IMG/VR virus record: IMGVR_UViG_2671180676_000004
Location: 1 to 64,000 of that record
Direction: 5' to 3' (one strand)
Origin: a virus
Lineage: Duplodnaviria > Heunggongvirae > Uroviricota > Caudoviricetes
Length of the DNA stretch: 64,000 nucleotides
The translations under genes and the position numbers were made by a program. The notes under the pieces were generated by a model. The model saw nothing but the letters and a program-made list of their open reading frames with translations. It was not told the origin of the DNA and did not search any database. Below, piece after piece: positions 147 to 63,700 of the stretch. How positions within the stretch are numbered: position 1 is the stretch's first letter; each line of letters opens with the position of its first letter.

Positions 147-210
147 AGCCTGCTTCTGTATATATAAATAACTACATATTAATTATTAATATACGGAAGC
201 AGGCTGTTTT
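147..210 (+). terminator. Hairpin H copy 1, intrinsic-terminator-like
   Basis: Arms 147-163 / 190-205 (agcctgcttctgtatat … atatacggaagcaggct) with one T·G wobble, AT-rich loop, then GTTTT. Confidence 0.55.
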
Positions 211-18193: not shown

Positions 18194-18289
18194 CGGTTGC
18201 AACTCATTGATAATGGCGGTCACAATTTGATTCTTTTCTATAAGAATCCGTTGATCGCCACTACTCCCCTTCCATACCCGCAATCACAT

Positions 18290-19100
18290 CCTTAAATATC
18301 AATAAGTTATAGTTGTTTATACAATCAAGAAAACAACTGAATAACAGATCAACGAAACATCAACGCTTTCACCCGATTTGGTCTAAAAAATTGACGTTTT
18401 CACACATCACTGCTTATACCCGTAATTCTACGCAGCAGACAGCGCCACAGCGTCCAATTTTCACCACAGACGACCCAACACACTACCAACAAAAACACAC
18501 GCTCAAAATCGTTCCCGTTGCGTTACATAACCATATAAACAACTTATTTCAGGCATAACAAAACAACTAAATAACACATATGCCATTCCCAAAACAACCA
18601 ACCTCTTTATGGCAGGCTACCGAAAAGACCCACCTCTTCTTCCCAGGCTACCGGACAACCAACCTAACTTTCACAGGCAATCCGAAAACATTCATACGCG
18701 CGATACCCACGACACGCCATTACCCAAACAGCGAAGAAACATCAGAATCACTGAAACCCCAACGAAGCCTGTAACCGCAAGGTTTCTCTCAATCCCAAAA
18801 GACACGAAACATAACAATCACGGGAAACGCCATTACCCAATACACGAATAACTACAAAAGCCCTTCACGCACTCCAGACAAACAACTCAAACACAATAAC
18901 GAAAGGAATCGCCCACCTGCCATTACTCCATACACGGAGAAGAACAATCACCAAAACGACGAGAACACCCCATAGAAGAACCACCGCAAAACGAACGAAA
19001 CCATTTACACCGACAGAGAGAACAACACGCCCAATTCACCAACAGAAATAGTCGCCGTATAGAACGTTCTGGAAGGAGTGAGCATTAACGCCTATAGAGA
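18290..19100 (+). repeat. A+C-rich, G+T-poor strand-skewed region with degenerate tandem repeats
   Basis: Repeated units such as acgccattacccaa(a/t)ac… and caggctaccg…; track ORFs here have implausible Thr/Pro/His/Gln-rich translations. Confidence 0.5.
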
Positions 19101-19261
19101 GGTTGAGACAGATAAAACACGAAGAAAACACAACATGTATAGCGAAGAAGCCAGGTATGTATAAGTGGGGAGGGAAGGAGGGGTGTCGCCTCCTTTTTCG
19201 TATTTATTCAACTCCTGATTTTATCCCCCGTAACACCCCTACGGTCAGCCTTCGGTCCATA

Positions 19262-19395
19262 CAGGGAAAAGGTTGCATCCCGCTACAGAAACGGCTGGGT
19301 TGCCTTCGGGGAACGGCTGGAGGTTTTCAGGGAAACGGTCGAGTTGCCTGTGTGGATTTCGGGAAAAGGCTCGATGCCGGTTCAGGAACGGCGGC
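19262..19395. repeat. Iteron-like direct repeat array (GGGAAAcGGc)
   Basis: Six copies (gggaaaagg, agaaacgg, gggaacgg, gggaaacgg, gggaaaagg, ggaacgg) spaced about 21-24 bp, one gap about 31 bp. Confidence 0.45.
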
Positions 19396-19728
19396 GTACC
19401 GGTATAGCGTGAGGGAGAGTTGCGGCTACCCACCTGTAATGTGCGGGAAGAAGAGAGGCGCTCACGTGCAGGCGAACTTACTTACCGCTGGATTCCCTCT
19501 GAATGCCCAGCTACAGCGTAATTGTGCCAGACAGCCAACGGGTCACAATCGATTTCAGTAGGTTTTCGGGGAGAGGATTATTCTGCCCACCAGCCACCTT
19601 CGGCCACTAAATCAGAATAATGTAAAAAGTGTACTCGATACTGAACCTGAAAACTCACTGCCAAAACAACATTCACCGGAATAAAATCCTTTTTCGCCTG
19701 TGCGTTATTGCGATAATAACACCAACGA

Positions 19729-21715: not shown

Positions 21716-21741
21716 AAGGCCATCAGCATTGATGGCCTTAA
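21716..21741. terminator. Perfect 8-bp-stem hairpin (ggccatca-gcat-tgatggcc)
   Basis: Perfect stem but no T-run, so terminator function uncertain. Confidence 0.35.
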
Positions 21742-21764
21742 ATGACCATCCTGTTTCCCGCAGG

Positions 21765-21850
21765 CTAAAAACACCAACCTCTTACCTCCAGGCAACCGAC
21801 AAACCCACCTGTTCCCGTCCGGCTACCGCAACTTTCCACTTTGACGCCTT
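21765..21850. repeat. Repeat related to 18590-18680
   Basis: accaacctctt…caggc(a/t)accg(a)ca(a)acccacct… shared between the two loci. Confidence 0.45.
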
Positions 21851-24761: not shown

Positions 24762-25286
24762 TCAAAAAGGCAAAATTCGTTCAACCCAATCGAACAAAAC
24801 AACTATTTTTCTACCGTTCTCGACACGTAGTGTAACCTGACAAGCATCTGCGCCTGCTGACACCCCCTCAATTTCACGGCCATCCGCCATGTACACCCTT
24901 ATAGATTTGTTTGCTTTGTAGGCTTGGTTGCAAATTGCAAAAAAATCGCGGCGTGATGGCCGATTATCGACATAATCAGGGTGAACTGTTAGTCGACCTT
25001 TGAAATCGTGAGCGATACTGTCAACCACACCTGATTCAATTGTACTAATGCGTTCAAGTGGGAGCCTTATACGATTTTCTTTGTCAAAAGGGGCTGGGCA
25101 AAGGTCAACTTTGTTACGAGATGGCATGAGGCCATAAACGTACATGCAAAACGCCTGGCCATCTTCGAGAGTGACCCTTACAGGAATTTGTTCTCTGCGC
25201 CAGAACATCAGTAGTTTTTCAACGTTAGTGTAATCTCGCGGCCAGAGTTCAGCTTGGATACCGTAGGTAATATCTTTGGTTGTCAT
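24762..25286 (-). CDS. Hypothetical protein (174 aa)
   Basis: Start set at MTTKD to avoid overlap with the upstream lipoprotein gene. Confidence 0.45.
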   Translation of the reverse strand: MTTKDITYGIQAELWPRDYTNVEKLLMFWRREQIPVRVTLEDGQAFCMYVYGLMPSRNKVDLCPAPFDKENRIRLPLERISTIESGVVDSIAHDFKGRLTVHPDYVDNRPSRRDFFAICNQAYKANKSIRVYMADGREIEGVSAGADACQVTLRVENGRKIVVLFDWVERILPF

Positions 25287-25781: not shown

Positions 25782-26060
25782 TTATTTTAATCTGCTTAAT
25801 AGCGTTTCGAGATCTTCCTTTGTCATATTAGAGTTCTCATAGATACGCATGATTTTCTCACGAGTCTTAGCGGAAGCCCCGACAGAAGATATAACCTTGT
25901 CAAAGTCGGCCATTGTCAATTGTTCCAGAATGGTATTTATGACTTCAGCCTTAGACATTTTGATATTTTTTTCTTTTAGTTTCACTTGAAACTTTCCAAG
26001 TTTGTCATTGGCCTTATCAGACAATGCTACCTGACAATAAGTTGTTTTCTTTTCGCTCAT
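25782..26060 (-). CDS. Hypothetical protein (92 aa)
   Basis: ORF 2 nt downstream of the helicase gene. Confidence 0.45.
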   Translation of the reverse strand: MSEKKTTYCQVALSDKANDKLGKFQVKLKEKNIKMSKAEVINTILEQLTMADFDKVISSVGASAKTREKIMRIYENSNMTKEDLETLLSRLK

Positions 26061-26062
26061 AA

Positions 26063-27687: not shown

Positions 27688-27704
27688 TGGATTGTAGCAA
27701 TAAA

Positions 27705-28385
27705 ATGGATGTAAAAATCACGATTTTGCAGGTTGATGTTGCCAACCTTCGCCCGAATACCTGGAACACCAATTCGGTTGGTGCGCAGAATTTTGAAAAA
27801 CTGAAAGGTTCTATCGAAAAATTGGGCTTTTTTAAGCCAATTTTGGCTCGTGAACTTGAAGATGGATTTTTTGAAATCCTCGGCGGCGAACATCGCTGGC
27901 GTGCTGCTATTGAGCAAGGAATTTCAACGGTTCCGGTGCTTTCTGTGGGCAAAATTAGCGATGTCGTAGCTAAACAGATGTCACTGGTGGACAACGAGCG
28001 ATACGGTGAAGACGACCAAATCGCATTGCAACGCTTCATTGAAGAAATTCAGTCAGAACTTGACTATCAACTGTCTGAAATCGCCCCGTATGACGACGAA
28101 ATCTCGATGGTTTTAGCAAAAGAGGCGGCAATCGACCTTGAAGCACTGGAGGCGTTGTCTCGTGGTAGTGATGAGCCTGTCGATACCGACAAACGAGAGA
28201 AAACCGAACGTGTGGGTGCGGAACATCAGACCATGCGCTTCAAAGTAACTTTCGATGCGTCAGATCGTGTTGCAGAAACCATAAAAAACATCATCAAAGA
28301 GCAGGCTATTAACACCGGTAATGAAATGGAGAACGCTGGTGAGGCTCTGGTGTGGCTGGTCGACTACTACAAGGAGCGTATGTAA
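27705..28385 (+). CDS. ParB/Srx-like nuclease-domain protein
   Basis: ParB N-domain motif GGEHRWRAA. Confidence 0.7.
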   Translation: MDVKITILQVDVANLRPNTWNTNSVGAQNFEKLKGSIEKLGFFKPILARELEDGFFEILGGEHRWRAAIEQGISTVPVLSVGKISDVVAKQMSLVDNERYGEDDQIALQRFIEEIQSELDYQLSEIAPYDDEISMVLAKEAAIDLEALEALSRGSDEPVDTDKREKTERVGAEHQTMRFKVTFDASDRVAETIKNIIKEQAINTGNEMENAGEALVWLVDYYKERM

Positions 28386-29053
28386 TGACCAAAAAGTTTG
28401 AAATCGTATATCGCGACCCGGCAGATCTTATTCCCTATGAGATGAATGCCAAAAAGCATGATGAACAGCAGATCCGAGATCTGGCCGCAGCCATTAAAAA
28501 GCGCGGATTTGACCAGCCAATTACGGTCGATAAGAACGACGTAATTATTACTGGCCACGGCCGCCGTGAGGCTGCAATTTTTGCTGGACTTGAGCGCGTA
28601 CCGGTTATTGTTCGCGATGATCTCAGTGATGACGAGGTTCGTGCGAAGCGCCTTGAAGATAACCGACTTGCCAGCATTGATTACGATGCAATTAAGCTAC
28701 AGAAAGAGCTTGAGTCGCTTGTTCTGGACGATATCGAGGTTTTCGGCTTTGAAGAGCGTGAGTTGAATGTTCTCGTTGGCAGTATGACAGAAGAAATGGA
28801 CACCGACTCGCTAGTTATCGATCTTGGCGAAGAAACTAAACGACAGAAGGATGAACACACCGAGATCAGTCGTGAAGTTGCAGCGGAAGAAGTACGTGTT
28901 GTCGACGTATTGGGCTTTAAAACGCTCCCTGCTGGCTCTGCCATTGTTGTTGGTGATTTGCTTGCCCATATGGAAGAAATGACGGGAGAAAGCGGGGTAG
29001 ACGCATTTGTGGCATATGCGGAGAAGATCTCTTCCGGGGAGATGGCTGCATGA
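28385..29053 (+). CDS. ParB/Srx-like domain protein (paralogue)
   Basis: Motif TGHGRREAA; ATG overlaps the upstream stop (TAATG); SD AAGGAG. Confidence 0.7.
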   Translation: MTKKFEIVYRDPADLIPYEMNAKKHDEQQIRDLAAAIKKRGFDQPITVDKNDVIITGHGRREAAIFAGLERVPVIVRDDLSDDEVRAKRLEDNRLASIDYDAIKLQKELESLVLDDIEVFGFEERELNVLVGSMTEEMDTDSLVIDLGEETKRQKDEHTEISREVAAEEVRVVDVLGFKTLPAGSAIVVGDLLAHMEEMTGESGVDAFVAYAEKISSGEMAA

Positions 29054-29715
29054 GCAAATACATCATCAACATATCGTTTCAGACACGCGTAAATAAAACC
29101 ACGCGCACGTTGGAAATCGCTGAGTCGTTCGGGCTTGGCCTGGACGAAAAAGAGTGGACGCTTTACGACAATCTGGAGCTGGAAGTGAAGCAGGGCGATG
29201 TGGTGTACATCACCGGCCAATCCGGTTCCGGCAAATCCGTTGTGCTGCGCGAGTTGCAACGACAGATGAAGGATGAAGGGCTGTCTGTAGCCTCCATCGA
29301 TGATTTTACCTTCGATAATGAGGTTAACGTCATCGATCAGTTGGGCAAAACGACCAGTGATGCGCTTGGGTTGTTATCTATGGCTGGTCTGAACGATGCA
29401 TATCTGTTTGTTCGCAAGCCTTCTGAAATGTCAGACGGCCAGAAATATCGTCTCAAGATTGCCAAACTGATTGAGTCAGGCGCTAAAGTGTGGGCTGCTG
29501 ACGAGTTCGGCGCTGTTCTCGACCGTGTAACCGCTCAGGTTGTGGCGTCTAACCTCCAGCGTGCCGCGCGAAAGGTTGGTGCGACGGTAATGGTGGCGAC
29601 GACTCACGAAGACCTGAAGAACGCGCTGCGCCCGGATATGCAGATCACCAAGCACTACAAAGAACGCGTGAAGGTGGAATATCACAATGGTAGTCATGAT
29701 GAGGTCCATTCATGA
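29050..29715 (+). CDS. ABC-type ATPase (nucleotide-binding-domain-like)
   Basis: Walker A GQSGSGKS, signature-like SDGQKYRL, Walker B VWAADEF, H-loop ATTHE; ATGA overlap. Confidence 0.65.
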   Translation: MSKYIINISFQTRVNKTTRTLEIAESFGLGLDEKEWTLYDNLELEVKQGDVVYITGQSGSGKSVVLRELQRQMKDEGLSVASIDDFTFDNEVNVIDQLGKTTSDALGLLSMAGLNDAYLFVRKPSEMSDGQKYRLKIAKLIESGAKVWAADEFGAVLDRVTAQVVASNLQRAARKVGATVMVATTHEDLKNALRPDMQITKHYKERVKVEYHNGSHDEVHS

Positions 29716-30602
29716 CGGACATCATCATTAAACGCTACCGCCCTGAAGAGTTTCCGCGTCATCTGGACTTTCTGGAGCGAATGACTGTTACAAAGGGAAC
29801 TGTAGAGGACTGGCACGCTCTTAAGTCGCTTCACTACAAAACAGACGGCAAACCTTTCGCGCCAACTTACTATCGCTGCGAACTTGATGACCGTCTGGTG
29901 GGCGTCGTGGTTATGGCTTACCCGAAACTACTGTTGGCACCTCGCCACCGCATGTTTCCTAAGTTGAAACCAACCACTAATACCACCGTGGCTAACCAGT
30001 ACTGGGGTCGGTACGTGAATAACAACTTTGCGGTGATCAGTCGCTCAGTTGTGGATACTCAGTATCGTGGCGTAGGCGTCTCTTATCGAATGATTAACCT
30101 GGTTAGCAGGATGCATGACCGGCCAATCATTGAGATCCAGTCCTCGATGAGCAAATACAATCCCTTCGCCATGAAAGCAGGGTTTAAGTTCATCCGCCCT
30201 GAGCGACCGAAGAGCTATGAAAGTGCACTGCGTGTATTCCAGCGCCATTTTCGTTCCGACCCGGGTGATAACGAGGCGATCGTCAAAGAGTTGTTCGCAA
30301 TGAGCGAGTCTCGTCGTCGCCGTGCACTGCGTGATCTGGTGGCGGACTACCATAAGAACAGTTCCCTGGCAAAAGCTGGGCGGAATCGTGGCACGACGAT
30401 TCAGGACATTGCCGACAGTCTGGTGGACGAGGCCAGCATTGTGAAGTTGCTCAAGGACATTCACAACCTGAGCTTTACGTCTCCGTTGTATGGGGTGTAT
30501 CGAAACCCTGACTTTGGTCGTCGACTGCCTGACACGCTGCCACTGCTGGCATTCGACAAACAACCTTTGGATAAACCGTTAGAAATTGCTTTACCGGCAT
30601 AA
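29712..30602 (+). CDS. GNAT-fold acetyltransferase-like protein with C-terminal extension
   Basis: GNAT motif A-like QYRGVGVSYRMI and motif B-like NPFAMKAGFKFI. Confidence 0.4.
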   Translation: MTDIIIKRYRPEEFPRHLDFLERMTVTKGTVEDWHALKSLHYKTDGKPFAPTYYRCELDDRLVGVVVMAYPKLLLAPRHRMFPKLKPTTNTTVANQYWGRYVNNNFAVISRSVVDTQYRGVGVSYRMINLVSRMHDRPIIEIQSSMSKYNPFAMKAGFKFIRPERPKSYESALRVFQRHFRSDPGDNEAIVKELFAMSESRRRRALRDLVADYHKNSSLAKAGRNRGTTIQDIADSLVDEASIVKLLKDIHNLSFTSPLYGVYRNPDFGRRLPDTLPLLAFDKQPLDKPLEIALPA

Positions 30603-30611
30603 GGATTTGCC

Positions 30612-30878
30612 ATGACGTTAACCGATAAACAAAAGGACATCATCAAAACGCTCAATCTCGGTTATGAGCGAGGTCATCTACTTGATCTGGACGAATTGCT
30701 TGAAGTTTTGCCGTACAAGACAACCAAGCAAAGTATCCAGTTCTCAATTCGCGCTCTGATAAAAAAGGGGCTTGTGGAGAAAGGGCATACGCGCCAACGC
30801 AGTGACAATCGCTATCACCGCCGAACTCTTGGGTTAACCACTTTAGGTCGAGCCAAAGCGAAGTTACTGGTGATGTAA
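30612..30878 (+). CDS. Small basic putative winged-helix DNA-binding protein
   Basis: 88 aa; last gene of the coupled operon; followed by hairpin H2. Confidence 0.4.
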   Translation: MTLTDKQKDIIKTLNLGYERGHLLDLDELLEVLPYKTTKQSIQFSIRALIKKGLVEKGHTRQRSDNRYHRRTLGLTTLGRAKAKLLVM

Positions 30879-30900
30879 TCGGTCTGGGAGCTTATTTAAA

Positions 30901-30960
30901 GACCTGCTTCTGTATATATAAATAATAAGTAACTTATTAAATATATACGGAAGCAGGCTT
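30901..30960 (+). terminator. Hairpin H copy 2
   Basis: cctgcttctgtatatat … atatatacggaagcagg with the same T·G wobble; nested inside outer inverted repeat ggtctggg (30881-30888) / cccagacc (30972-30979). Confidence 0.5.
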
Positions 30961-30994
30961 AATAAGACATGCCCAGACCTAATTAAACAACCCA

Positions 30995-31035
30995 GAAAAC
31001 AAGTTGGTTAGAAAATGCAGTAAACAAGTTGTTTT
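30995..31035 (+). promoter_or_regulatory. Tandem motif A copies upstream of the small terminase gene
   Basis: gaaaacaagttgg and aaacaagttgtttt, followed by palindrome agagcgc-atggac-gcgctct. Confidence 0.4.
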
Positions 31036-31074
31036 AGAGCGCATGGACGCGCTCTGTGTGTTTTAGAGGGATCT

Positions 31075-31707
31075 ATGACGGTCGAAAAAGACGAGGTAAA
31101 AACTCGCCTGACACCAGCGGAGTGGGCCGAAGCTGAAGCCAAATGGACGTCAGGCGAATATACACTCTCAAAGCTGGAGGAAGAGTACGGCATTCGTCGT
31201 GAAACACTCTCCAGACATTTCAAAAAGCGAGGATTAGAGAAAGGCGCGGACTCTGTTGGGAAGATGGTTCGTGAGTCTCTTAAATCTGACGCAGAGCTTC
31301 GCGCTAAAGCCCGTGCGGAAAAGATAGAAGAACGTCGTACACGTTATGACGGCTGGGCGTATGCGTTGGGGCAGATGGTGATGGTCGAAGTCACTACGGC
31401 CAAACGTGAGGGTAAGCCTTTAGGGGCGATTGAGGATTCTCTCAAGAGCTTACAGAGAGCCAGTAATACCCTTGCAAAATGCTTTGAAGTTTCGTCCAAA
31501 GCATTGGGCATGGATCATGCGGAAAATGACGAGGAAGAAATTCCGAACCTGGTATTTGGTGAGCTTACGCCTTCCCAGGTGGCGAAATTACGTCAGGAAG
31601 ACGACGAGCCTGAAATCATCGATGACGAATTGCTTGAGACGTTGGAAGAAGAAGCTCTAAGCGAATTTGATGCGACAGATGATGGAAGTGAAGGGGAGGA
31701 CGAATAA
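31075..31707 (+). CDS. Terminase small subunit (putative)
   Basis: 210 aa directly upstream of and overlapping TerL; acidic C-terminus. Confidence 0.55.
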   Translation: MTVEKDEVKTRLTPAEWAEAEAKWTSGEYTLSKLEEEYGIRRETLSRHFKKRGLEKGADSVGKMVRESLKSDAELRAKARAEKIEERRTRYDGWAYALGQMVMVEVTTAKREGKPLGAIEDSLKSLQRASNTLAKCFEVSSKALGMDHAENDEEEIPNLVFGELTPSQVAKLRQEDDEPEIIDDELLETLEEEALSEFDATDDGSEGEDE

Positions 31708-32963
31708 TGGCAATCCCGTCCTCGCTCAGTCTTGTGCAACTGCATTCTGGACAGATGAAAGTCTTCCAGTCTCCGCATCGATTTAAAGTTGTTTGTGCTG
31801 GTCGACGCTGGGGAAAATCCCGGTTGTCGATCTCCACTATTATTCGTGCGGCGGCAAAGGAAAAAAAGCAAAGGGTCTGGTATGTCGCTCCTACTTACCA
31901 GATGGCTCGCCAGATTTTGTGGGACGATCTACAGGAAGTTCTGCCTCGTAAGTGGGTTAGGAAAAAGAACGACACCACGATGACAATCGTGTTGAAGAAC
32001 GGTTCGGAGATCGCCCTCAAAGGTGCTGATAAGCCTGACACTCTGCGCGGCGTAGCGTTGCATTTTGTAGTGCTTGATGAATTTCAGGATATGAAGGCTG
32101 ACACCTGGTACAAGGTGTTACGACCTACTCTTTCATCGACACGCGGCGGTGCACTGATCATTGGTACGCCAAAAGGTTTCTCGGAATTTCACAAACTGTG
32201 GACTATAGGCCAGAACGTAGAGCTGCAAAGAAAGGGACAGTGGAAGAGCTGGCAGTTTGTAACTGCCGATTCTCCGTTTGTGCCTACGGCGGAAATTGAA
32301 GCTGCTAAGAACGATATGGACCCGAAATCGTTCGCTCAGGAGTACCTGGCGAGCTTTGAGAACATGTCCGGGCGCGTTTACTACCCGTTCGATCGTAACG
32401 TGCATGTAAAACCGCTTCAGTTCAACCCTCGGTTGCCTATATGGGTAGGGCAGGACTTCAACATTGACCCGATGTCTTCAGTAATTTTGCAACCTCAGCC
32501 AAATGGTGAGCTATGGGCAATTGATGAATTGGTGCTCTTTTCCTCTAACACGGCAGAGGTTTGTGATGAGCTTGAGAGACGCTTCTGGCGCTGGAAATCA
32601 CAGATAACGGTATTTCCAGATCCGGCAGGTGCTTATCGCCAACATGCTCGCGGGGAGTCTGACGTCGACATATTCAAAGAGAAGGGATTCTTACGTGTCG
32701 ATTATTCGAAAAAGCACCCGCCAATTGCGGATCGTGTTAATGCTGTTAACCGAATGCTGATGACCGCATCTGGAGATATCCGGTTGTATATCGATCCGAA
32801 GTGCAAGCATTTGATTGATTCACTGGAAAAAGTCATCTACAAGCCTGGAACACGAGATATGGATAAGACAGGTGGCATTGAGCATAGTGCAGACGCATTG
32901 GGCTATCCAGTACATCGTAGGTATCCAGTCAAAAACCGTGTTATTCTTGGTGGTTCTCGATAG
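31707..32963 (+). CDS. Terminase large subunit
   Basis: Walker A-like VVCAGRRWGKS; C-terminal acidic nuclease-type segment. Confidence 0.85.
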   Translation: MAIPSSLSLVQLHSGQMKVFQSPHRFKVVCAGRRWGKSRLSISTIIRAAAKEKKQRVWYVAPTYQMARQILWDDLQEVLPRKWVRKKNDTTMTIVLKNGSEIALKGADKPDTLRGVALHFVVLDEFQDMKADTWYKVLRPTLSSTRGGALIIGTPKGFSEFHKLWTIGQNVELQRKGQWKSWQFVTADSPFVPTAEIEAAKNDMDPKSFAQEYLASFENMSGRVYYPFDRNVHVKPLQFNPRLPIWVGQDFNIDPMSSVILQPQPNGELWAIDELVLFSSNTAEVCDELERRFWRWKSQITVFPDPAGAYRQHARGESDVDIFKEKGFLRVDYSKKHPPIADRVNAVNRMLMTASGDIRLYIDPKCKHLIDSLEKVIYKPGTRDMDKTGGIEHSADALGYPVHRRYPVKNRVILGGSR

Positions 32964-59386: not shown

Positions 59387-59908
59387 TTATTCTTCGAACA
59401 ATTTTTCGATAGATTTTGTAGGATAGAACAAAGAACGCTCGTTGTTACCAACCAGCTGGATAAAGCCTAAACTTTTATAAAACGCCTTGGCTTTGTCATT
59501 TAACGCCTCAACGAAAAGTCCATGAATGCCTACAGCAAGAGATGCATTGTACACAACGCGCATTGCATGTGTTACAAGCATTGAGCCAAATCCTTGACCT
59601 TGAAGGGACTTGTCCAAAGCCAGCCTACCCAAAGTAACACTTGGAACATTCCGATAAGGTACCTTCTTTTGCTGGCTTCTTGAAGGTAAGGACTCCTTTT
59701 CAAAGCAGCTGCCTGACAAAGTGTAATACCCTAACACTTTTGGTCTGTCTTCTTTCGTGAAAAGCACATAAGCGCGAAGAATTTTTCCCTCATGCTGCCT
59801 TTTTAAGTGGTTGGTTAAAAAGGCATTTAGTGATTCTTCACCGCAATCAAAACCATTCAAATCATAATCTTTCTCTCCAGAGAAAATTTCTATCTTTATA
59901 TTATCCAC
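59387..59908 (-). CDS. GNAT-family tRNA-acetylating toxin (AtaT/ItaT/TacT-like)
   Basis: 173 aa; strong resemblance to remembered AtaT (…DYDL..FDCGEE.LN.FLT.HL.RQH…ILRAY.L…VLGYYTL.GSCFE…LPS.S.QKK.PY.N.PSVTLGRLA.D.SLQGQG…GIHGLFVEALN.KA..FYKSLGF). Confidence 0.8.
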   Translation of the reverse strand: MDNIKIEIFSGEKDYDLNGFDCGEESLNAFLTNHLKRQHEGKILRAYVLFTKEDRPKVLGYYTLSGSCFEKESLPSRSQQKKVPYRNVPSVTLGRLALDKSLQGQGFGSMLVTHAMRVVYNASLAVGIHGLFVEALNDKAKAFYKSLGFIQLVGNNERSLFYPTKSIEKLFEE

Positions 59909-60185: not shown

Positions 60186-60453
60186 GTATTCCTCCTGATG
60201 GCCGTGATGTAGGAAGGCCATCAATCTCCTCTGTTCAAACTGAGTTTTCGACTCAAAAATTACTTTAAAAGGCTATAGCCCATTACGTGTGCATTATCAA
60301 ATTGTGTACGGCATATCACCGTACTTGTAATATAGAGGTCATTGTTACTTTTTTCAACAGACAAATACAAGCTATGATTGCCAATTGTTAATCACAACCT
60401 ACCATTTAACCTTTACACCGCAGCCGTAGGCATTTAGGCTATATCACATATAA

Positions 60454-60468
60454 GAAAACAAGTTGTTT
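60454..60468 (+). promoter_or_regulatory. Motif A palindrome
   Basis: gaaaacaagttgttt, about 35 nt before ATG 60504. Confidence 0.45.
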
Positions 60469-60503
60469 CAGACGATAATTATATACGCAAAGGGAACTCT
60501 CCA

Positions 60504-61172
60504 ATGACCAAGATCTTTGTGGTTGGCGGCACAAAGGGCGGGCCTGGCAAATCCACCGTTGCCCAGCAAATTGCCGTTTGCCTGAAAGTCAAAAAGAAGA
60601 AGAAGGTTTATATTACCGATATAGATATTCAGCGCACGACAACGAGCTGGTGTGAAGACCGTCGACAGAACGAAGACCTTGAGCTGATTCCTTTTGCATA
60701 CGTTCAGGATGACATCATTAAGCACCTAAAATCGCTTCAGGGTAGAGCTGAGTTTGTAGTGGTAGATGCTGGTGGCTTCGACTCCGAAATTCAGCGACAA
60801 GCGATGCTGATGGCTGACGTTATCATTATCCCGCTGCGTCCTAAGCGTCGTGATTTGAAATCTTTACGTGACATCGATCCTATTATCGACAATGTTCGCA
60901 ATGTAAACGATAAAGTGAAGGTCCGCGCGGTCATGAACCAGTGCCCGGCTTTGCCATCACAAGTGTCTCGCATTCTGGCGGCTAAAGAGATTGTCGAGAC
61001 GTTTGGCATCGAGTCTGCGCCAGTCAATCTATATAACCGCAACGTCTACGATGATGCGGAAGAGTCTGGTCGTTCTATCTTCGAAATGACCGGTAGCGAG
61101 CGCGACAAAAAGGCGGAAGCCGAGTTTGAAGAATTTGTAGATTATCTGTTGAGTCTGGAGGAAGAAGAATAA
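60504..61172 (+). CDS. ParA/MinD-family partition ATPase
   Basis: Deviant Walker A GGTKGGPGKST. Confidence 0.75.
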   Translation: MTKIFVVGGTKGGPGKSTVAQQIAVCLKVKKKKKVYITDIDIQRTTTSWCEDRRQNEDLELIPFAYVQDDIIKHLKSLQGRAEFVVVDAGGFDSEIQRQAMLMADVIIIPLRPKRRDLKSLRDIDPIIDNVRNVNDKVKVRAVMNQCPALPSQVSRILAAKEIVETFGIESAPVNLYNRNVYDDAEESGRSIFEMTGSERDKKAEAEFEEFVDYLLSLEEEE

Positions 61173-61531
61173 TGTCCATGAAAATGGGTGACCTAGCAAA
61201 GCGCAAAGAGCCTGATGCACCGGCTAAGAACACAACTCCTTTGCGCCAACCAGTCAGACCACAAGGACGCCCGACTCGTGGCAAAGAGAAAATTAAAAGC
61301 CGCACCATGTCACTGGAAGACGAATACTTCGAGCTTCTGGAAATGATGAAGTTTATCCCTCGTTTCGAGAAGTTCACCCGCTCTGATGTGATTCGTGCTG
61401 CTATTTTCCATCTGGCAGAGAAGTCGCCGCAGGAAATCGAGGATATCGTGAAACTTAACGAGGCGATCACTGCTGCCGACGTCACGATGCGTACCGATGA
61501 AATCAAACGCGAGTTGATGAAGAAAGGTTAA
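61172..61531 (+). CDS. Small partner protein of the ParA-like ATPase
   Basis: 119 aa; basic disordered N-terminus then helical domain; ATG overlaps parA stop. Confidence 0.45.
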   Translation: MSMKMGDLAKRKEPDAPAKNTTPLRQPVRPQGRPTRGKEKIKSRTMSLEDEYFELLEMMKFIPRFEKFTRSDVIRAAIFHLAEKSPQEIEDIVKLNEAITAADVTMRTDEIKRELMKKG

Positions 61532-61538
61532 TTTTATT

Positions 61539-61563
61539 GAGGTGCTGCTTGGCACCTCTTTCT
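61539..61563 (+). terminator. Intrinsic terminator
   Basis: gaggtgc-tgcttg-gcacctc + TTTCT. Confidence 0.7.
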
Positions 61564-61575
61564 ATAGGTTCCCTA

Positions 61576-62295
61576 ATGCTCTACAAATATATTGGAAGTG
61601 AAGATTCGCAAAAAGTGTTACGTAACCTCAAACGGTTTGTAGAGGACGGCACTATCTCTGCTAGCGCACCTTCTTCATTCAACGACCCATCAGAGTTCAA
61701 AGTTTCGATAACGATGGGAGGTACAGAAGTGGAGCGCCGGAAACACTTTGAAGACAATGGATGTAAGGATTTTTCCTTTGAAGACTGGGATGCTGTAGCT
61801 CCTGAAGCTGCAAAATCGTTGGCTGTGGATTTGCGGAAAGAATCATTAGGGGCTTTTGGTGTGGTGTGCTTGTCACCAAACGAAGATAACATCTTGATGT
61901 GGTCACATTACTCAGTGTCGCATAAAGGTTTCTGCATAGGCTTTGATGATGATTTTGTTACCTCTATTGAGGGGTATCACAGCTTTGATAATGTGAAATA
62001 TATACCTTCTGTTCCCGTGTTCGATGAAGTTACAGATGAGTTTAAGGTACTTTTTGATAAGCTCTTTTTCTACAAGCACGAATGCTGGAAATATGAGGAA
62101 GAACAAAGGGTTATTACTAAAAAAATAGGCGCTCAGGCATTTGATAAGAAATATATTAGAGAGATCATTCTTGGACATAACGTTTCTCCTGAAGTAGAAG
62201 AATATGCCCGGACACAGCTAGACACGAGCATCGAGGTTTACAAAATGAGTACACCTGATGATGGTTATCTTCTTGTCAAAGAAAAGCTGAAGTAG
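61576..62295 (+). CDS. DUF2971-like protein
   Basis: Starts MLYKY…; motifs SFNDPSEF and MWSHYS as I recall for DUF2971. Confidence 0.5.
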   Translation: MLYKYIGSEDSQKVLRNLKRFVEDGTISASAPSSFNDPSEFKVSITMGGTEVERRKHFEDNGCKDFSFEDWDAVAPEAAKSLAVDLRKESLGAFGVVCLSPNEDNILMWSHYSVSHKGFCIGFDDDFVTSIEGYHSFDNVKYIPSVPVFDEVTDEFKVLFDKLFFYKHECWKYEEEQRVITKKIGAQAFDKKYIREIILGHNVSPEVEEYARTQLDTSIEVYKMSTPDDGYLLVKEKLK

Positions 62296-62361
62296 CTCCA
62301 GACTTTCCTCAAATGATTATGTTGGGCGCTTTTCTTATTGAACTGGTTAGTGAGGCTAATA

Positions 62362-63534
62362 ATGGATTTGTTCTCAACCAAAATAGCAAAAAACAAGCTG
62401 CACGAATCTTTTAAACAGATTTATCAAGATAATACATATGCTCCAGTAAGAGAAGTGATACAGTCGTGGGGGCGTGGGTTACTGGAGCGTAGCGGTGAGC
62501 AGACTAAATTCGTTAAAGAGTTTCAGACAACCTTCAATTCCGCCTTATGGGAATTGTATCTGAACGAAATGTTTATTCGTCTCGATTATTCTGTCGACTA
62601 CACAAAAGACAGTCCCGATTTCTGTGTTACTACACCGTCAGGCTACCAGTTTAACGTCGAAGCTGTGATATCAGATCGGCCACATAATCCACCTGCAGGT
62701 GCTCTTTTTAGCGAATTAAAATTCAAACATCAATCAACGCTAAAATTAATCGGAAAAATCAAAGACAAACATGATCTTTTTACAGGAGTTAATGGCAAAA
62801 AATTCCCGTACTCTACGATGTCTCATGTAGTTAATAAGCCGTTTGTTCTGGCGCTTGCACCCTTTGACTCCGATTTATCATTGTCTCAAAATAACACAAT
62901 CATCAATCGAGTGTTGTTTGGCATTGAGGAACCTACCACCAGAAATTTGGTGACTGGCAGCCAAACTAAAGTTACCTCAATCAAAAAGAATGAAGACGTT
63001 GAAATTCCATTAGGTATATTTACTAACGACTCATATAAAGAAATAAGTGCGGTTATTTTCTCCACCACCGGCACTTTTGGAAAAGCCGTGGTTCAAAGCG
63101 GTATCGGTAGATATGTAAGGTCAACACGATATCGAGCCATTGATGTGAATGATTTCATCGCCAATGAAGGGATGAAAAACGAGGGAAAGCACACACAAAG
63201 GATAGGACCTGATCATTTCATCACTACATATCGGCATTTTTTAAATAACGAAGTCACTGGTGCGGATATTGTAGTTTGTCATTCCACTGCTCATGAAGAG
63301 ACGCACTTTGACGGCCTTCATATTTACTACAATCCTTTTGCGACAGTGCCACTGGACAGAAATATTTTCTTCCCCCCAGAGATAACTCATAATTTTTACG
63401 ATATGGAAAAAGAACAGTCTGTTCAGAATCATCCTGATGGAGCGCTGGTATCTAGACAGGTTTTTGAACCAACTAGAGCACATTTTAGGTATATCATGAA
63501 ACATTGGTTTCCAGGCTTTCTAAAAGATGTTTAA
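62362..63534 (+). CDS. Hypothetical protein (about 390 aa)
   Basis: ATG 62362 with SD GAGG; track start 62338 is TTG; followed by hairpin H3. Confidence 0.5.
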   Translation: MDLFSTKIAKNKLHESFKQIYQDNTYAPVREVIQSWGRGLLERSGEQTKFVKEFQTTFNSALWELYLNEMFIRLDYSVDYTKDSPDFCVTTPSGYQFNVEAVISDRPHNPPAGALFSELKFKHQSTLKLIGKIKDKHDLFTGVNGKKFPYSTMSHVVNKPFVLALAPFDSDLSLSQNNTIINRVLFGIEEPTTRNLVTGSQTKVTSIKKNEDVEIPLGIFTNDSYKEISAVIFSTTGTFGKAVVQSGIGRYVRSTRYRAIDVNDFIANEGMKNEGKHTQRIGPDHFITTYRHFLNNEVTGADIVVCHSTAHEETHFDGLHIYYNPFATVPLDRNIFFPPEITHNFYDMEKEQSVQNHPDGALVSRQVFEPTRAHFRYIMKHWFPGFLKDV

Positions 63535-63556: not shown

Positions 63557-63619
63557 AACCTGCTTCTGTATATAAATACTAAGTTACTTATTATTATTTA
63601 TACGGAAGCAGGTCTTTTT
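63557..63619 (+). terminator. Hairpin H copy 3, intrinsic terminator
   Basis: acctgcttctgtatataaata … tatttatacggaagcaggt, same T·G wobble, then TTTTT. Confidence 0.6.
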
Positions 63620-63700
63620 CTATGCCAACTTCCCAGACACATTCCCTTCCGTTTCCACTTCCAAAAACTGCCACCAGTCGCTATCATCCGCTCATTGCAA

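What the first reader, a model, noticed from the sequence alone, without database searches (positions are those of the whole stretch)
60316..61563. ParA-type partition pair in a phage-like element with no integrase in view
A deviant-Walker-A ParA and a small coupled partner protein are preceded by a motif A site and an inverted repeat GTACGG-N7-CCGTAC at 60316-60334. No tyrosine or serine recombinase is present anywhere in the 64 kb. This, together with the iteron-like repeats, suggests plasmid-like (phage-plasmid) maintenance or a non-canonical use of the ParA system.
Basis: partly seen in the sequence, partly recalled or inferred. Interest (0 to 1): 0.6.

Follow-up and report, generated by a model that had tools for sequence, protein, structure and literature searches.

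The report
Known phage-plasmid partition cassette (SSU5 family)
This is the ordinary plasmid-partition gene pair (a small ParA ATPase and a small DNA-binding partner) of a well-known family of E. coli phage-plasmids, and the inverted repeat flagged beside it is the operator of the neighbouring toxin-antitoxin genes, not part of the partition system.

Summary
The window is 99.99% identical to the circular 111-kb E. coli plasmid pUTAK-6-1, a member of the SSU5/pHCM2 phage-plasmid family.

**The cassette (60397-61563):**
- a conserved sigma70-type promoter
- one motif A palindrome
- parA (222 aa, KGGPGKST, nearest solved relative ParF of TP228, type Ib)
- a translationally coupled 119-aa partner that is probably ribbon-helix-helix (RHH)
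- a terminator

- The inverted repeat (IR) GTACGG-N7-CCGTAC is real but lies at 60306-60324, 10 bp from the stated position.
- It is the KacA-type operator of the divergent kacAT-like toxin-antitoxin operon. The arms and spacer length match the crystallised KacAT operator.
- It travels with the toxin-antitoxin (TA) module, not with par.

**Recombinase and replicon:**
- No recombinase is in the window. A conserved tyrosine recombinase lies about 13 kb beyond its right end.
- RepB and its iterons are also outside the window.
- In 5,426 complete E. coli genomes the locus occurs 265 times, always on plasmids.

**Still open:**
- Motif A is a plasmid-wide 16-site element. Its binding protein is unknown.
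- The centromere has not been identified.

Interest is low.

The parts
59387..59908 (-). GNAT acetyltransferase toxin (KacT/TacT-like). A neighbour of the par system, not part of it.
   Evidence: Pfam Acetyltransf_1/7/10. Annotated as KacT in phage Cyrano.
59916..60185 (-). RHH antitoxin (KacA/TacA-like, DUF1778).
   Evidence: Pfam TacA1, 8.6e-26. Matches KacA in PDB 5ZGN at 6.6e-42. Only residue 2 differs in the first 26 residues, so the DNA-contacting R8, D10 and R12 are kept.
60329..60357 (-). Sigma70-like promoter of the kacAT-like operon (TTGAAA-17-TATATT).
   Evidence: Promoter scan, 10 of 12 matches. Function is inferred.
60306..60324 (.). IR GTACGG-CATATCA-CCGTAC: the KacA-type operator of the TA operon, not a par element.
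   Evidence: Located. The crystallised KacAT operator is TGTACGG-TTATTAA-CCGTACA, with the same arms and the same 7-nt spacer length, and it spans the kacAT transcription start (PMC6698736). Here the IR sits just downstream of the -10 of the leftward promoter. It is absent from relatives that lack the TA module.
60397..60470 (+). Conserved par leader: the left edge of the par cassette and the best candidate for the partner's operator/centromere (not proven).
   Evidence: Homology with TA-less relatives starts here. In four relatives whose par DNA is 80-91% identical, this is the most conserved stretch of the locus: 83-97% invariant columns.
60412..60440 (+). parA promoter: TTTACA, 17 nt, TAGGCT.
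   Evidence: The same -35/17/-10 geometry recurs in six diverged lineages: TTGTCA/TAGGCT, TTGACC/TACCAT, TTTACA/TAGTAT and others. The promoter scan tool did not call it. It is inferred from conservation.
60456..60468 (.). Motif A palindrome AAACAA-G-TTGTTT, about +8 to +20 of the inferred par transcript.
   Evidence: 12 sites in the window against 0.46 expected; 16 in the whole plasmid. Kept at the parA promoter in lineages where the partner is only 31-64% identical.
60504..61172 (+). parA: type Ib (small, ParF-like) deviant-Walker-A partition ATPase, 222 aa.
   Evidence: Pfam MipZ/AAA_31/CbiA. PHROG 164 'ParA-like partition protein', 4e-51. Best PDB relatives are ParF of TP228 (4dzz, 5u1g) at 1.2e-10, aligned from residue 9, so there is no N-terminal HTH domain.
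61172..61531 (+). Partner protein, 119 aa: probable RHH centromere-binding protein with a disordered basic N-terminal tail.
61539..61563 (+). Intrinsic terminator ending the par operon.
   Evidence: 8-bp stem (5 G-C pairs) followed by TTTCT. Homology with relatives ends at about 61530-61540.

Best explanation
The region is the partition cassette of an SSU5/pHCM2-type phage-plasmid. This is a tailed temperate phage whose prophage is a low-copy circular plasmid of about 110 kb.

**The operon.** One sigma70 promoter (60412-40) drives a two-gene operon that ends at a terminator (61539-63).
- ParA (222 aa) is a small ParF-like (type Ib) deviant-Walker-A ATPase.
- The translationally coupled 119-aa partner is most likely an RHH dimer.

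**Proposed mechanism.**
- The partner's beta-ribbon (IKSRTMS) binds a site in or near the 107-bp par leader. This both autoregulates the operon and forms the partition complex.
- The partner's disordered, conserved basic N-terminal tail (MGDLAKR...RPQGRPTRGK) stimulates the ParA ATPase.
- Plasmid copies are then separated on the nucleoid, as in other ParA systems.

**Extra wiring.** The operon leader carries one copy of motif A. This palindrome sits just after the promoter of about 14 other operons of the element, so par expression is tied to an element-wide regulator that has not been identified.

**The IR.** GTACGG-N7-CCGTAC is not part of this system. It is the KacA operator of the divergent kacAT-like addiction module, a second and independent plasmid-stabilising device.

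**Shown versus inferred.**
- Shown: the identity of the element, the ParA family, the gene arrangement, the conservation pattern and the operator match.
- Inferred: the RHH fold, the tail function, the position of the centromere and the regulatory role of motif A.
For: **Element identity**
- 99.99% identity to circular plasmid pUTAK-6-1.
- par DNA matches phage SSU5 (86%), Cyrano (98%) and 685 plasmids, 651 of them non-mobilizable.
- 265 of 265 E. coli copies are on plasmids.
- RepB with flanking iterons lies elsewhere on the replicon.
- The literature describes the SSU5 supergroup of phage-plasmids and their induction by mitomycin C.

**ParA**
- Walker A KGGPGKST and Pfam/PHROG hits.
- ParF is the best solved relative, aligned over residues 9-199.

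**Partner**
- Coupled start.
- Always found after parA in syntenic loci.
- Occurs in 797 plasmids, close to one per Enterobacteriaceae backbone copy.
- Invariant IxSR.xS.E...R.D..RAA pattern.
- AF2 secondary structure.
- Weak RHH profile hits and an in-register hhalign match to CopG.

**Cassette limits and leader conservation:**

**IR as the KacA operator:**
Against: - No array of short repeats, the usual form of a type Ib centromere, is present in 60187-60503 or after the partner gene. The centromere is therefore not identified.
- ParA scores 115.7 against the NCBIfam 'ParA_partition' equivalog cut-off of 180.
- The promoter is inferred from conservation and was not called by the scan tool.
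- No experimental work on this par locus was found in the searched literature.
Confidence: 0.85

Rival explanations
1. The partner itself binds motif A. The 16 dispersed palindromes would then serve as a scattered centromere and as operators. The partner would act as a global repressor of lytic and replication operons as well as the partition adaptor, like omega of pSM19035, KorB of RK2 or SopB of N15.
For: - Motif A is the only non-coding element upstream of parA that is conserved across lineages where the partner has diverged to 31-64% identity.
- Between L008 and L012 it is the sole conserved upstream block apart from the ribosome-binding site.
- The two half-sites are centred only 7 bp apart. 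From general knowledge, this suits RHH dimers (omega heptads, MetJ boxes) better than helix-turn-helix dimers.
- The partner's putative DNA-reading strand is invariant.
- Type Ib adaptors normally autoregulate at their own promoter.
- par must be expressed in the lysogen, which fits autoregulation better than control by a prophage master repressor.
Against: - The presence/absence pattern is the opposite of what this predicts.
- pMT1 lacks ParA and the partner but keeps six motif A sites. These include the double site before the terminase operon, where the palindromes are conserved and the spacer has diverged.
- The complete Moellerella SSU5-like plasmid has ParA plus a partner with the same beta-strand, yet it has no motif A anywhere.
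- L016 and L017 also lack the palindrome upstream of parA.
- Several other small DNA-binding candidates exist on the plasmid.
- Caveat: pMT1 is a degenerate element, so its sites could be relics.
Confidence: 0.2
2. The IR GTACGG-N7-CCGTAC is the par centromere or operator.
For: It lies in the parA-kacA intergenic region, 180 bp upstream of parA.
Against: - Its arms and spacer length are those of the crystallised KacAT operator.
- The adjacent antitoxin keeps the DNA-contacting residues of KacA; its first 26 residues differ from KacA only at position 2.
- It sits at the transcription start of the leftward promoter.
- SSU5, pJN2-26 and pCAV1741-110 have the par cassette without it.
Confidence: 0.02
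3. The element is an integrated prophage. ParA would then serve something other than plasmid partition, such as chromosome-linked positioning or defence, with the integrase just outside the window mediating integration.
For: A tyrosine recombinase (Phage_integrase, 6e-10) with an adjacent HTH gene lies about 13 kb beyond the window.
Against: - There are 0 chromosomal copies among 265 in complete E. coli genomes.
- The matching record is a closed circular plasmid carrying RepB and iterons.
- The recombinase is a conserved backbone gene in pMT1 (87%) and the Moellerella plasmid (48%), both of which are plasmids. This fits multimer resolution, which is an inference.
Confidence: 0.02
4. The 119-aa partner is a RelE/ParE-type toxin, as annotated in phage Cyrano. 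The pair would then be an addiction module rather than a partition system.
For: The Cyrano record names it 'RelE/ParE putative toxin'.
Against: - No Pfam, NCBIfam or PDB hit to ParE/RelE.
- The predicted structure is a disordered tail plus helices, with RHH-type best matches.
- It is always coupled to a ParA ATPase.
Confidence: 0.01

Closest known systems
par locus of Salmonella phage SSU5 (SSU5_033 'ParA-like partition protein' and SSU5_034) and of pHCM2-type phage-plasmids
   Same: Same genes in the same place, between the lysis cassette and the DnaB-like helicase. DNA identity is 86%, ParA 91% and partner 93%. The leader, including motif A, is identical.
   Different: Here a kacAT-like TA module sits on the left and a DUF2971 gene plus a 398-aa gene on the right. 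SSU5 has other small ORFs in those positions. The partner is unannotated in both.
ParF-ParG-parH of plasmid TP228 (type Ib partition)
   Same: A small ParA without an N-terminal DNA-binding domain; ParF is the best solved relative (1.2e-10). A small downstream adaptor with a flexible N-terminal tail and a probable RHH fold. Regulatory DNA lies upstream of parA.
   Different: There is no detectable sequence similarity between the partner and ParG. The hhalign comparison used a ParG sequence recalled from memory. The partner is longer (119 aa against 76 aa) and has two extra C-terminal helices. No array of tetramer boxes was found upstream.
delta-omega of pSM19035, and KorB-IncC of RK2
   Same: In these systems the partition adaptor is also a global regulator whose sites sit in several promoters. 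This would be the model if the partner binds motif A.
   Different: Binding of the partner to motif A is not shown, and the presence/absence pattern argues against it. Omega sites are arrays of 7-10 heptads; motif A occurs as single palindromes.
SegA-SegB of Sulfolobus
   Different: The match is weak, and SegB is from an archaeal chromosome system. This is a fold-level resemblance only.
KacAT / TacAT / AtaRT (GNAT-RHH toxin-antitoxin) operator
   Same: The IR has the same GTACGG / CCGTAC arms and the same 7-nt spacer length as the KacAT operator in PDB 5ZGN. It occupies the same position over the transcription start. The antitoxin keeps KacA's DNA-contacting residues R8, D10 and R12.
   Different: The spacer sequence is CATATCA here and TTATTAA in K. 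pneumoniae kacAT.
P1 ParA-ParB-parS and N15 SopA-SopB (other phage-plasmid partition systems)
   Same: They do the same job: active partition of a plasmid prophage.
   Different: Those are type Ia systems with large ParA proteins carrying HTH domains and large ParB/SopB proteins. pMT1, a relative of this element, has replaced the cassette with a system of that type.

Membership tests
ParA/MinD superfamily (deviant Walker A ATPases) | Walker A of the form xKGGxxK[ST] with the signature N-terminal lysine | tested here: met
   GGTKGGPGKST at residues 8-18.
ParA/MinD superfamily (deviant Walker A ATPases) | Profile match above curated thresholds | tested here: met
   Pfam MipZ 52.1 bits (cut-off 20.7), AAA_31 52.2 (27), CbiA 31.9 (25.4). 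PHROG 164, 4e-51.
Type Ib plasmid ParA (ParF-like) | About 200-230 aa, with no N-terminal HTH/regulatory domain | tested here: met
   222 aa. The alignment to ParF starts at residue 9 of both proteins.
Type Ib plasmid ParA (ParF-like) | NCBIfam NF041546 'ParA_partition' equivalog score | tested here: not met
   115.7 bits against a cut-off of 180, although E is 1.9e-33 over the full length. It is a relative but not an equivalog by NCBI's threshold.
Type Ib partition system | A small adaptor gene immediately downstream of parA, co-transcribed with it | tested here: met
   The ATG overlaps the parA stop and a terminator follows the second gene. The arrangement is conserved in all relatives examined.
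Type Ib partition system | The adaptor is an RHH (or other small) site-specific DNA-binding dimer | tested here: inconclusive
Type Ib partition system | A centromere made of an array of short repeats next to the operon | tested here: not met
   No unit is repeated three or more times in 60187-60503 or after 61531. Only the single motif A palindrome is present. The iteron-like arrays elsewhere do not resemble the par leader.
Type Ib partition system | Stabilises a plasmid; centromere-dependent incompatibility; adaptor-stimulated ATPase | not testable with these tools
   These need wet-lab assays.
SSU5/pHCM2 phage-plasmids | A circular plasmid of about 100-115 kb with the SSU5-like virion, lysis and replication gene set plus a plasmid replicon | tested here: met
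   99.99% identity to pUTAK-6-1. The annotation shows terminase, portal, capsid, tail, holin/endolysin, DnaB, DnaE and RepB with iterons.
SSU5/pHCM2 phage-plasmids | Extrachromosomal in natural hosts | tested here: met
   265 of 265 places are on plasmids across 264 complete E. coli genomes.
KacA/TacA operator (for the IR) | Palindrome GTACGG-N7-CCGTAC over the transcription start of a GNAT-RHH TA operon, with a cognate antitoxin carrying R8, D10 and R12 | tested here: met
RelE/ParE toxins (Cyrano's annotation of the partner) | ParE/RelE fold or profile match | tested here: not met
   No hit in Pfam, NCBIfam or PDB.

The most novel reading that the evidence does not exclude
The uncharacterised RHH-like partner (PHROG 5111, function unknown) is the protein that recognises motif A. 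This phage-plasmid would then use one small protein as three things at once: the partition adaptor, a dispersed 16-site centromere binder, and a global repressor of the terminase, helicase, nrdB and early operons. That would couple plasmid segregation to control of lytic genes.
Probability: 0.15. Interest if true: 0.6.

Novelty: already known. Interest (0 to 1): 0.15.

Why it matters
SSU5-like phage-plasmids are common in clinical Enterobacteriaceae. This cassette alone is in about 5% of complete E. coli genomes (264 of 5,426). Some of these elements carry resistance genes (PMC9600943), so how they are stably inherited has practical interest.

The finding itself adds nothing new, because both the element and its ParA are already catalogued. 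Three things remain open and were only sharpened here:
- The partner protein has no assigned function in public annotation, and in one phage record it is mis-named a toxin.
- The centromere is unmapped.
- par is wired into a 16-site palindrome regulon whose binding protein is unknown.

Tried and rejected
1. **IR as a par element.** Rejected. It matches the KacAT operator and is absent from TA-less relatives.
2. **Iteron-like arrays (18591-18687, 21739-21832) as RepB iterons or as a centromere related to the par leader.** Rejected. The RepB iterons have a different sequence and lie outside the window. A weight matrix built from the arrays scores the par leader at -1.8, against 32 or more for true copies.
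3. **A short centromere repeat array in or next to the cassette.** None found. No unusually conserved stretch lies inside the coding regions.
4. **Direct similarity of the partner to ParG or CopG.** hhalign against sequences I recalled from memory gave nothing for ParG and only a weak in-register match for CopG (E 0.019). Foldseek against PDB found nothing. PDB sequence and profile searches found nothing.
5. **An 'AACAAG' subsite shared by all parA leaders, including Moellerella.** Dropped. The repeated ACAAGG element there coincides with the ribosome-binding site.
6. **The FljA-like protein as the motif A binder acting on 5' UTRs.** Its presence/absence pattern fits: present in pMT1, absent in Moellerella. 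However, the E. coli fliC leader contains no motif A. It remains an untested lead.
7. **RNA genes.** Rfam and tRNA scans of the window found nothing.
8. **Literature.** The phage-plasmid literature searches returned no experimental study of this par locus.
Full report
**What is at the coordinates**

The stretch holds two overlapping ORFs on the + strand.
- The first, 60504-61172, encodes a 222-aa protein beginning MTKIFVVGGTKGGPGKST. This is a deviant Walker A with the signature lysine.
- Its Pfam hits are MipZ, AAA_31 and CbiA, all above cut-off. PHROG 164 'ParA-like partition protein' scores 4e-51.
- The best solved relatives are ParF of TP228 (4dzz, 5u1g; 1.2e-10). The alignment starts at residue 9, so there is no N-terminal DNA-binding domain. 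This makes it a small, type Ib ParA.
- It is not an NCBIfam 'ParA_partition' equivalog by threshold: 115.7 bits against 180.
- The second ORF, 61172-61531, encodes 119 aa. It starts at an ATG that overlaps the parA stop (TAATG), and GGAGGA lies 9 nt upstream.
- A G+C-rich hairpin followed by TTTCT sits at 61539-61563.
- The motif A site is real at 60456-60468.
- The IR is real, but it lies at 60306-60324, 10 bp from the stated position.

**What the element is**

- The par DNA is 100% identical to E. coli plasmid pUTAK-6-1 (NZ_CP157149.1, 111,466 bp, circular, non-mobilizable). It is 98% identical to phages Cyrano and CMS-2020a, 86% to Salmonella phage SSU5 and about 80% to Klebsiella phage-plasmids. 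In all it matches 685 PLSDB plasmids.
- The whole window aligns to pUTAK-6-1 at 99.989%.
- That plasmid carries an SSU5-like virion and lysis gene set, DnaB, DnaE, nrdAB and other replication genes, and a RepB initiator. The SSU5/pHCM2 phage-plasmid family is described in PMC7969092.
- The repB-parA region of SSU5 serves as a marker for these elements, and members are induced by mitomycin C.
- Among 5,426 complete E. coli genomes the locus occurs in 264, at 265 places. All are on plasmids and none is on a chromosome.

**The recombinase and iteron arguments**

- No recombinase is annotated in the part of pUTAK-6-1 that corresponds to the window.
- Pfam scans of three unannotated ORFs and seven of the longer hypothetical ORFs found none. 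tblastn with a tyrosine and a serine recombinase found nothing.
- The replicon does encode a 367-aa tyrosine recombinase (Phage_integrase, 6e-10) next to an HTH gene at record 30675-31778. This is about 13 kb past the right end of the window.
- That gene is part of the conserved backbone: 87% identical in pMT1 and 48% in a Moellerella plasmid. Because these elements are always plasmids, a role in multimer resolution is the likely one. This is an inference.
- The plasmid's true iterons (TATGCTGTCAGCGGT, roughly 20 copies on both sides of repB) are also outside the window.
- The iteron-like arrays inside the window are a different element.

**The inverted repeat belongs to the neighbours**

- Left of par, on the - strand, lies a GNAT toxin and DUF1778 antitoxin pair.
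- The antitoxin matches KacA of K. pneumoniae (PDB 5ZGN) at 6.6e-42. Only residue 2 differs in the first 26 residues, so the DNA-contacting residues R8, D10 and R12 are kept.
- The DNA crystallised with KacAT is AAATGTACGGTTATTAACCGTACATGA. It has the same GTACGG / CCGTAC arms and the same 7-nt spacer length as the IR here. It is reported to span the kacAT transcription start (PMC6698736).
- In the window the IR lies immediately downstream of the -10 of a leftward promoter, TTGAAA-17-TATATT.
- Relatives that lack the TA module (SSU5, pJN2-26, pCAV1741-110) keep par but not the IR. Their homology starts at 60397.
- The IR is the TA operator, not a par site.

**Anatomy of the par cassette**

- Comparison with relatives sets the cassette limits at about 60397 and about 61540. 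The flanks vary.
- In relatives whose par DNA is 80-91% identical, the leader 60400-60470 is the most conserved stretch of the whole locus: 83-97% invariant columns.
- Across six diverged lineages a -35/17-nt/-10 promoter is kept at the same place. Here it is TTTACA at 60412-17 and TAGGCT at 60435-40.
- In five of those lineages motif A follows 13-15 nt after the -10.

**The partner protein**

- Its family is very small: 25 clusters in the word-indexed search and 18 representatives among 1.84 billion.
- It is always found directly after a ParA gene in the same syntenic position.
- It occurs in 797 plasmids, close to one per Enterobacteriaceae SSU5-like backbone.
- Conserved features are an N-terminal MGDLAKR, a basic RPQGRPTRGK stretch, the segment IKSRTMSxEDE, and FTRSDVIRAA.
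- The AF2 monomer model (pLDDT 63) is disordered up to residue 47, then has helices at 48-60, 70-84, 86-98 and 101-118.
- NCBIfam aCcr1, an RHH family, scores 2e-4. Pfam RHH_1 weakly hits 2 of 13 members. hhalign places CopG in register.
- I read the partner as an RHH centromere-binding protein with a ParA-stimulating tail, as in ParG or omega. The evidence is suggestive, not strong.
- Cyrano's label 'RelE/ParE toxin' has no support.

**Motif A**

- AAACAA-N-TTGTTT occurs 12 times in the window against 0.46 expected, and 16 times in the whole plasmid.
- Each site lies shortly after a sigma70-like -10 and 13-93 nt before a start codon.
- Sites precede parA, the DnaB-like helicase, nrdB, the terminase operon (a double site) and many small ORFs at 16.8-22 kb.
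- In favour of the partner binding it:
  - It is the only upstream element conserved as the partner diverges.
  - The spacing of the two half-sites suits RHH proteins.
- Against the partner binding it:
  - pMT1 has no ParA or partner but keeps six sites, with conserved palindromes around a diverged spacer.
  - A complete Moellerella SSU5-like plasmid has ParA and a partner with the same beta-strand, but no motif A at all.
  - The partner's presence/absence pattern is therefore the inverse of the motif's.
- I put the partner-binds-motif-A reading at about 0.15-0.2. Otherwise I treat motif A as the operator of an unidentified element-wide regulator that also controls par.

**The centromere**

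- No repeat array lies in or beside the cassette.
- The leader is unique in the plasmid apart from motif A.
- The iteron-like arrays do not resemble it.
- The 107-bp leader is the best candidate, because it is the only non-coding DNA that travels with the genes. This is an inference.

**Verdict**

This is an ordinary, already catalogued partition cassette of a known phage-plasmid family, sitting beside an independent KacAT-type addiction module. Novelty is 'already known' and interest is low. The open points are the function of the partner, the centromere, and the protein that binds motif A.

Noticed in passing
window 2624, 3353, 16873, 16924, 18537, 19731, 20215, 21118, 21882, 30997, 31022, 60456: Motif A (AAACAA-N-TTGTTT) defines a regulon of about 16 promoter-proximal sites across the plasmid. 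These include the terminase operon, the DnaB-like helicase, nrdB and parA. The motif is absent from a Moellerella relative and retained in pMT1. The protein that binds it is unknown.
   Followed up: partly
window 18591-18687 and 21739-21832 (plus 18200-19600): Two arrays of three ~30-bp units (ACCnACCT-N9-CAGGCTACCG) lie in strongly A+C-rich non-coding DNA and are followed by GGGAAACGG-type repeats. They are not the RepB iterons and do not resemble the par leader. They could be a lytic origin or another cis site.
   Followed up: partly
window 149-205, 30903-30959, 63558-63623: A family of long AT-rich hairpins with G+C clamps (CCTGCTTCTGTATAT...ATATACGGAAGCAGG). The deposited genomes of phages SSU5 and Cyrano both start at window ~30940, inside the middle copy just upstream of the terminase operon. 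That copy may therefore mark the packaging or genome end; the others look like terminators. Related elements occur in Klebsiella and Moellerella relatives.
   Followed up: no
window 20614, 27662, 32959, 34461, 36382, 39958, 46462, 53381, 57854, 63699: A second dispersed palindrome family (TAAGTA-N2-TACTTA within ATAGGTAAGTATATACTTAC), mostly between structural genes. It may be a late-gene regulatory or terminator element.
   Followed up: no
window ~24762-25286 (-): A 174-aa protein with a full-length match to Pfam Flag1_repress (FljA, repressor of phase-1 flagellin; 1.5e-84). It is present in pMT1 and absent from the Moellerella relative. This is the same pattern as motif A, but the E. coli fliC leader has no motif A.
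   Followed up: partly
window ~27700-29720 (+): Two ParB/Srx N-terminal-domain proteins and an ABC-type ATPase are encoded just upstream of the terminase region. They are conserved in pMT1 and the Moellerella plasmid and are unrelated to the ParA cassette.
   Followed up: no
window ~25783-26061 (-); plasmid record 82521-82799: A 92-aa protein after the DEAD/DEAH helicase has a textbook RHH sequence pattern (YCQVALSDKANDKLGKFQVKLKEKNIKMSKAEVINTILEQL). It is another candidate small DNA-binding regulator.
   Followed up: no
window 61537-63534: A DUF2971 protein and a 398-aa protein with no Pfam match are inserted between the par cassette and the helicase region. This slot holds different genes in SSU5, Cyrano and the Klebsiella relatives, so it behaves as a variable accessory (possibly defence) island.
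   Followed up: no
L016 2010-2040 (a distant relative's locus): A perfect LexA-box-like palindrome (TACTGTAATTATATACAGTA) lies next to a Peptidase_S24 gene that diverges from parA. This hints at SOS-linked control in that lineage.
   Followed up: no
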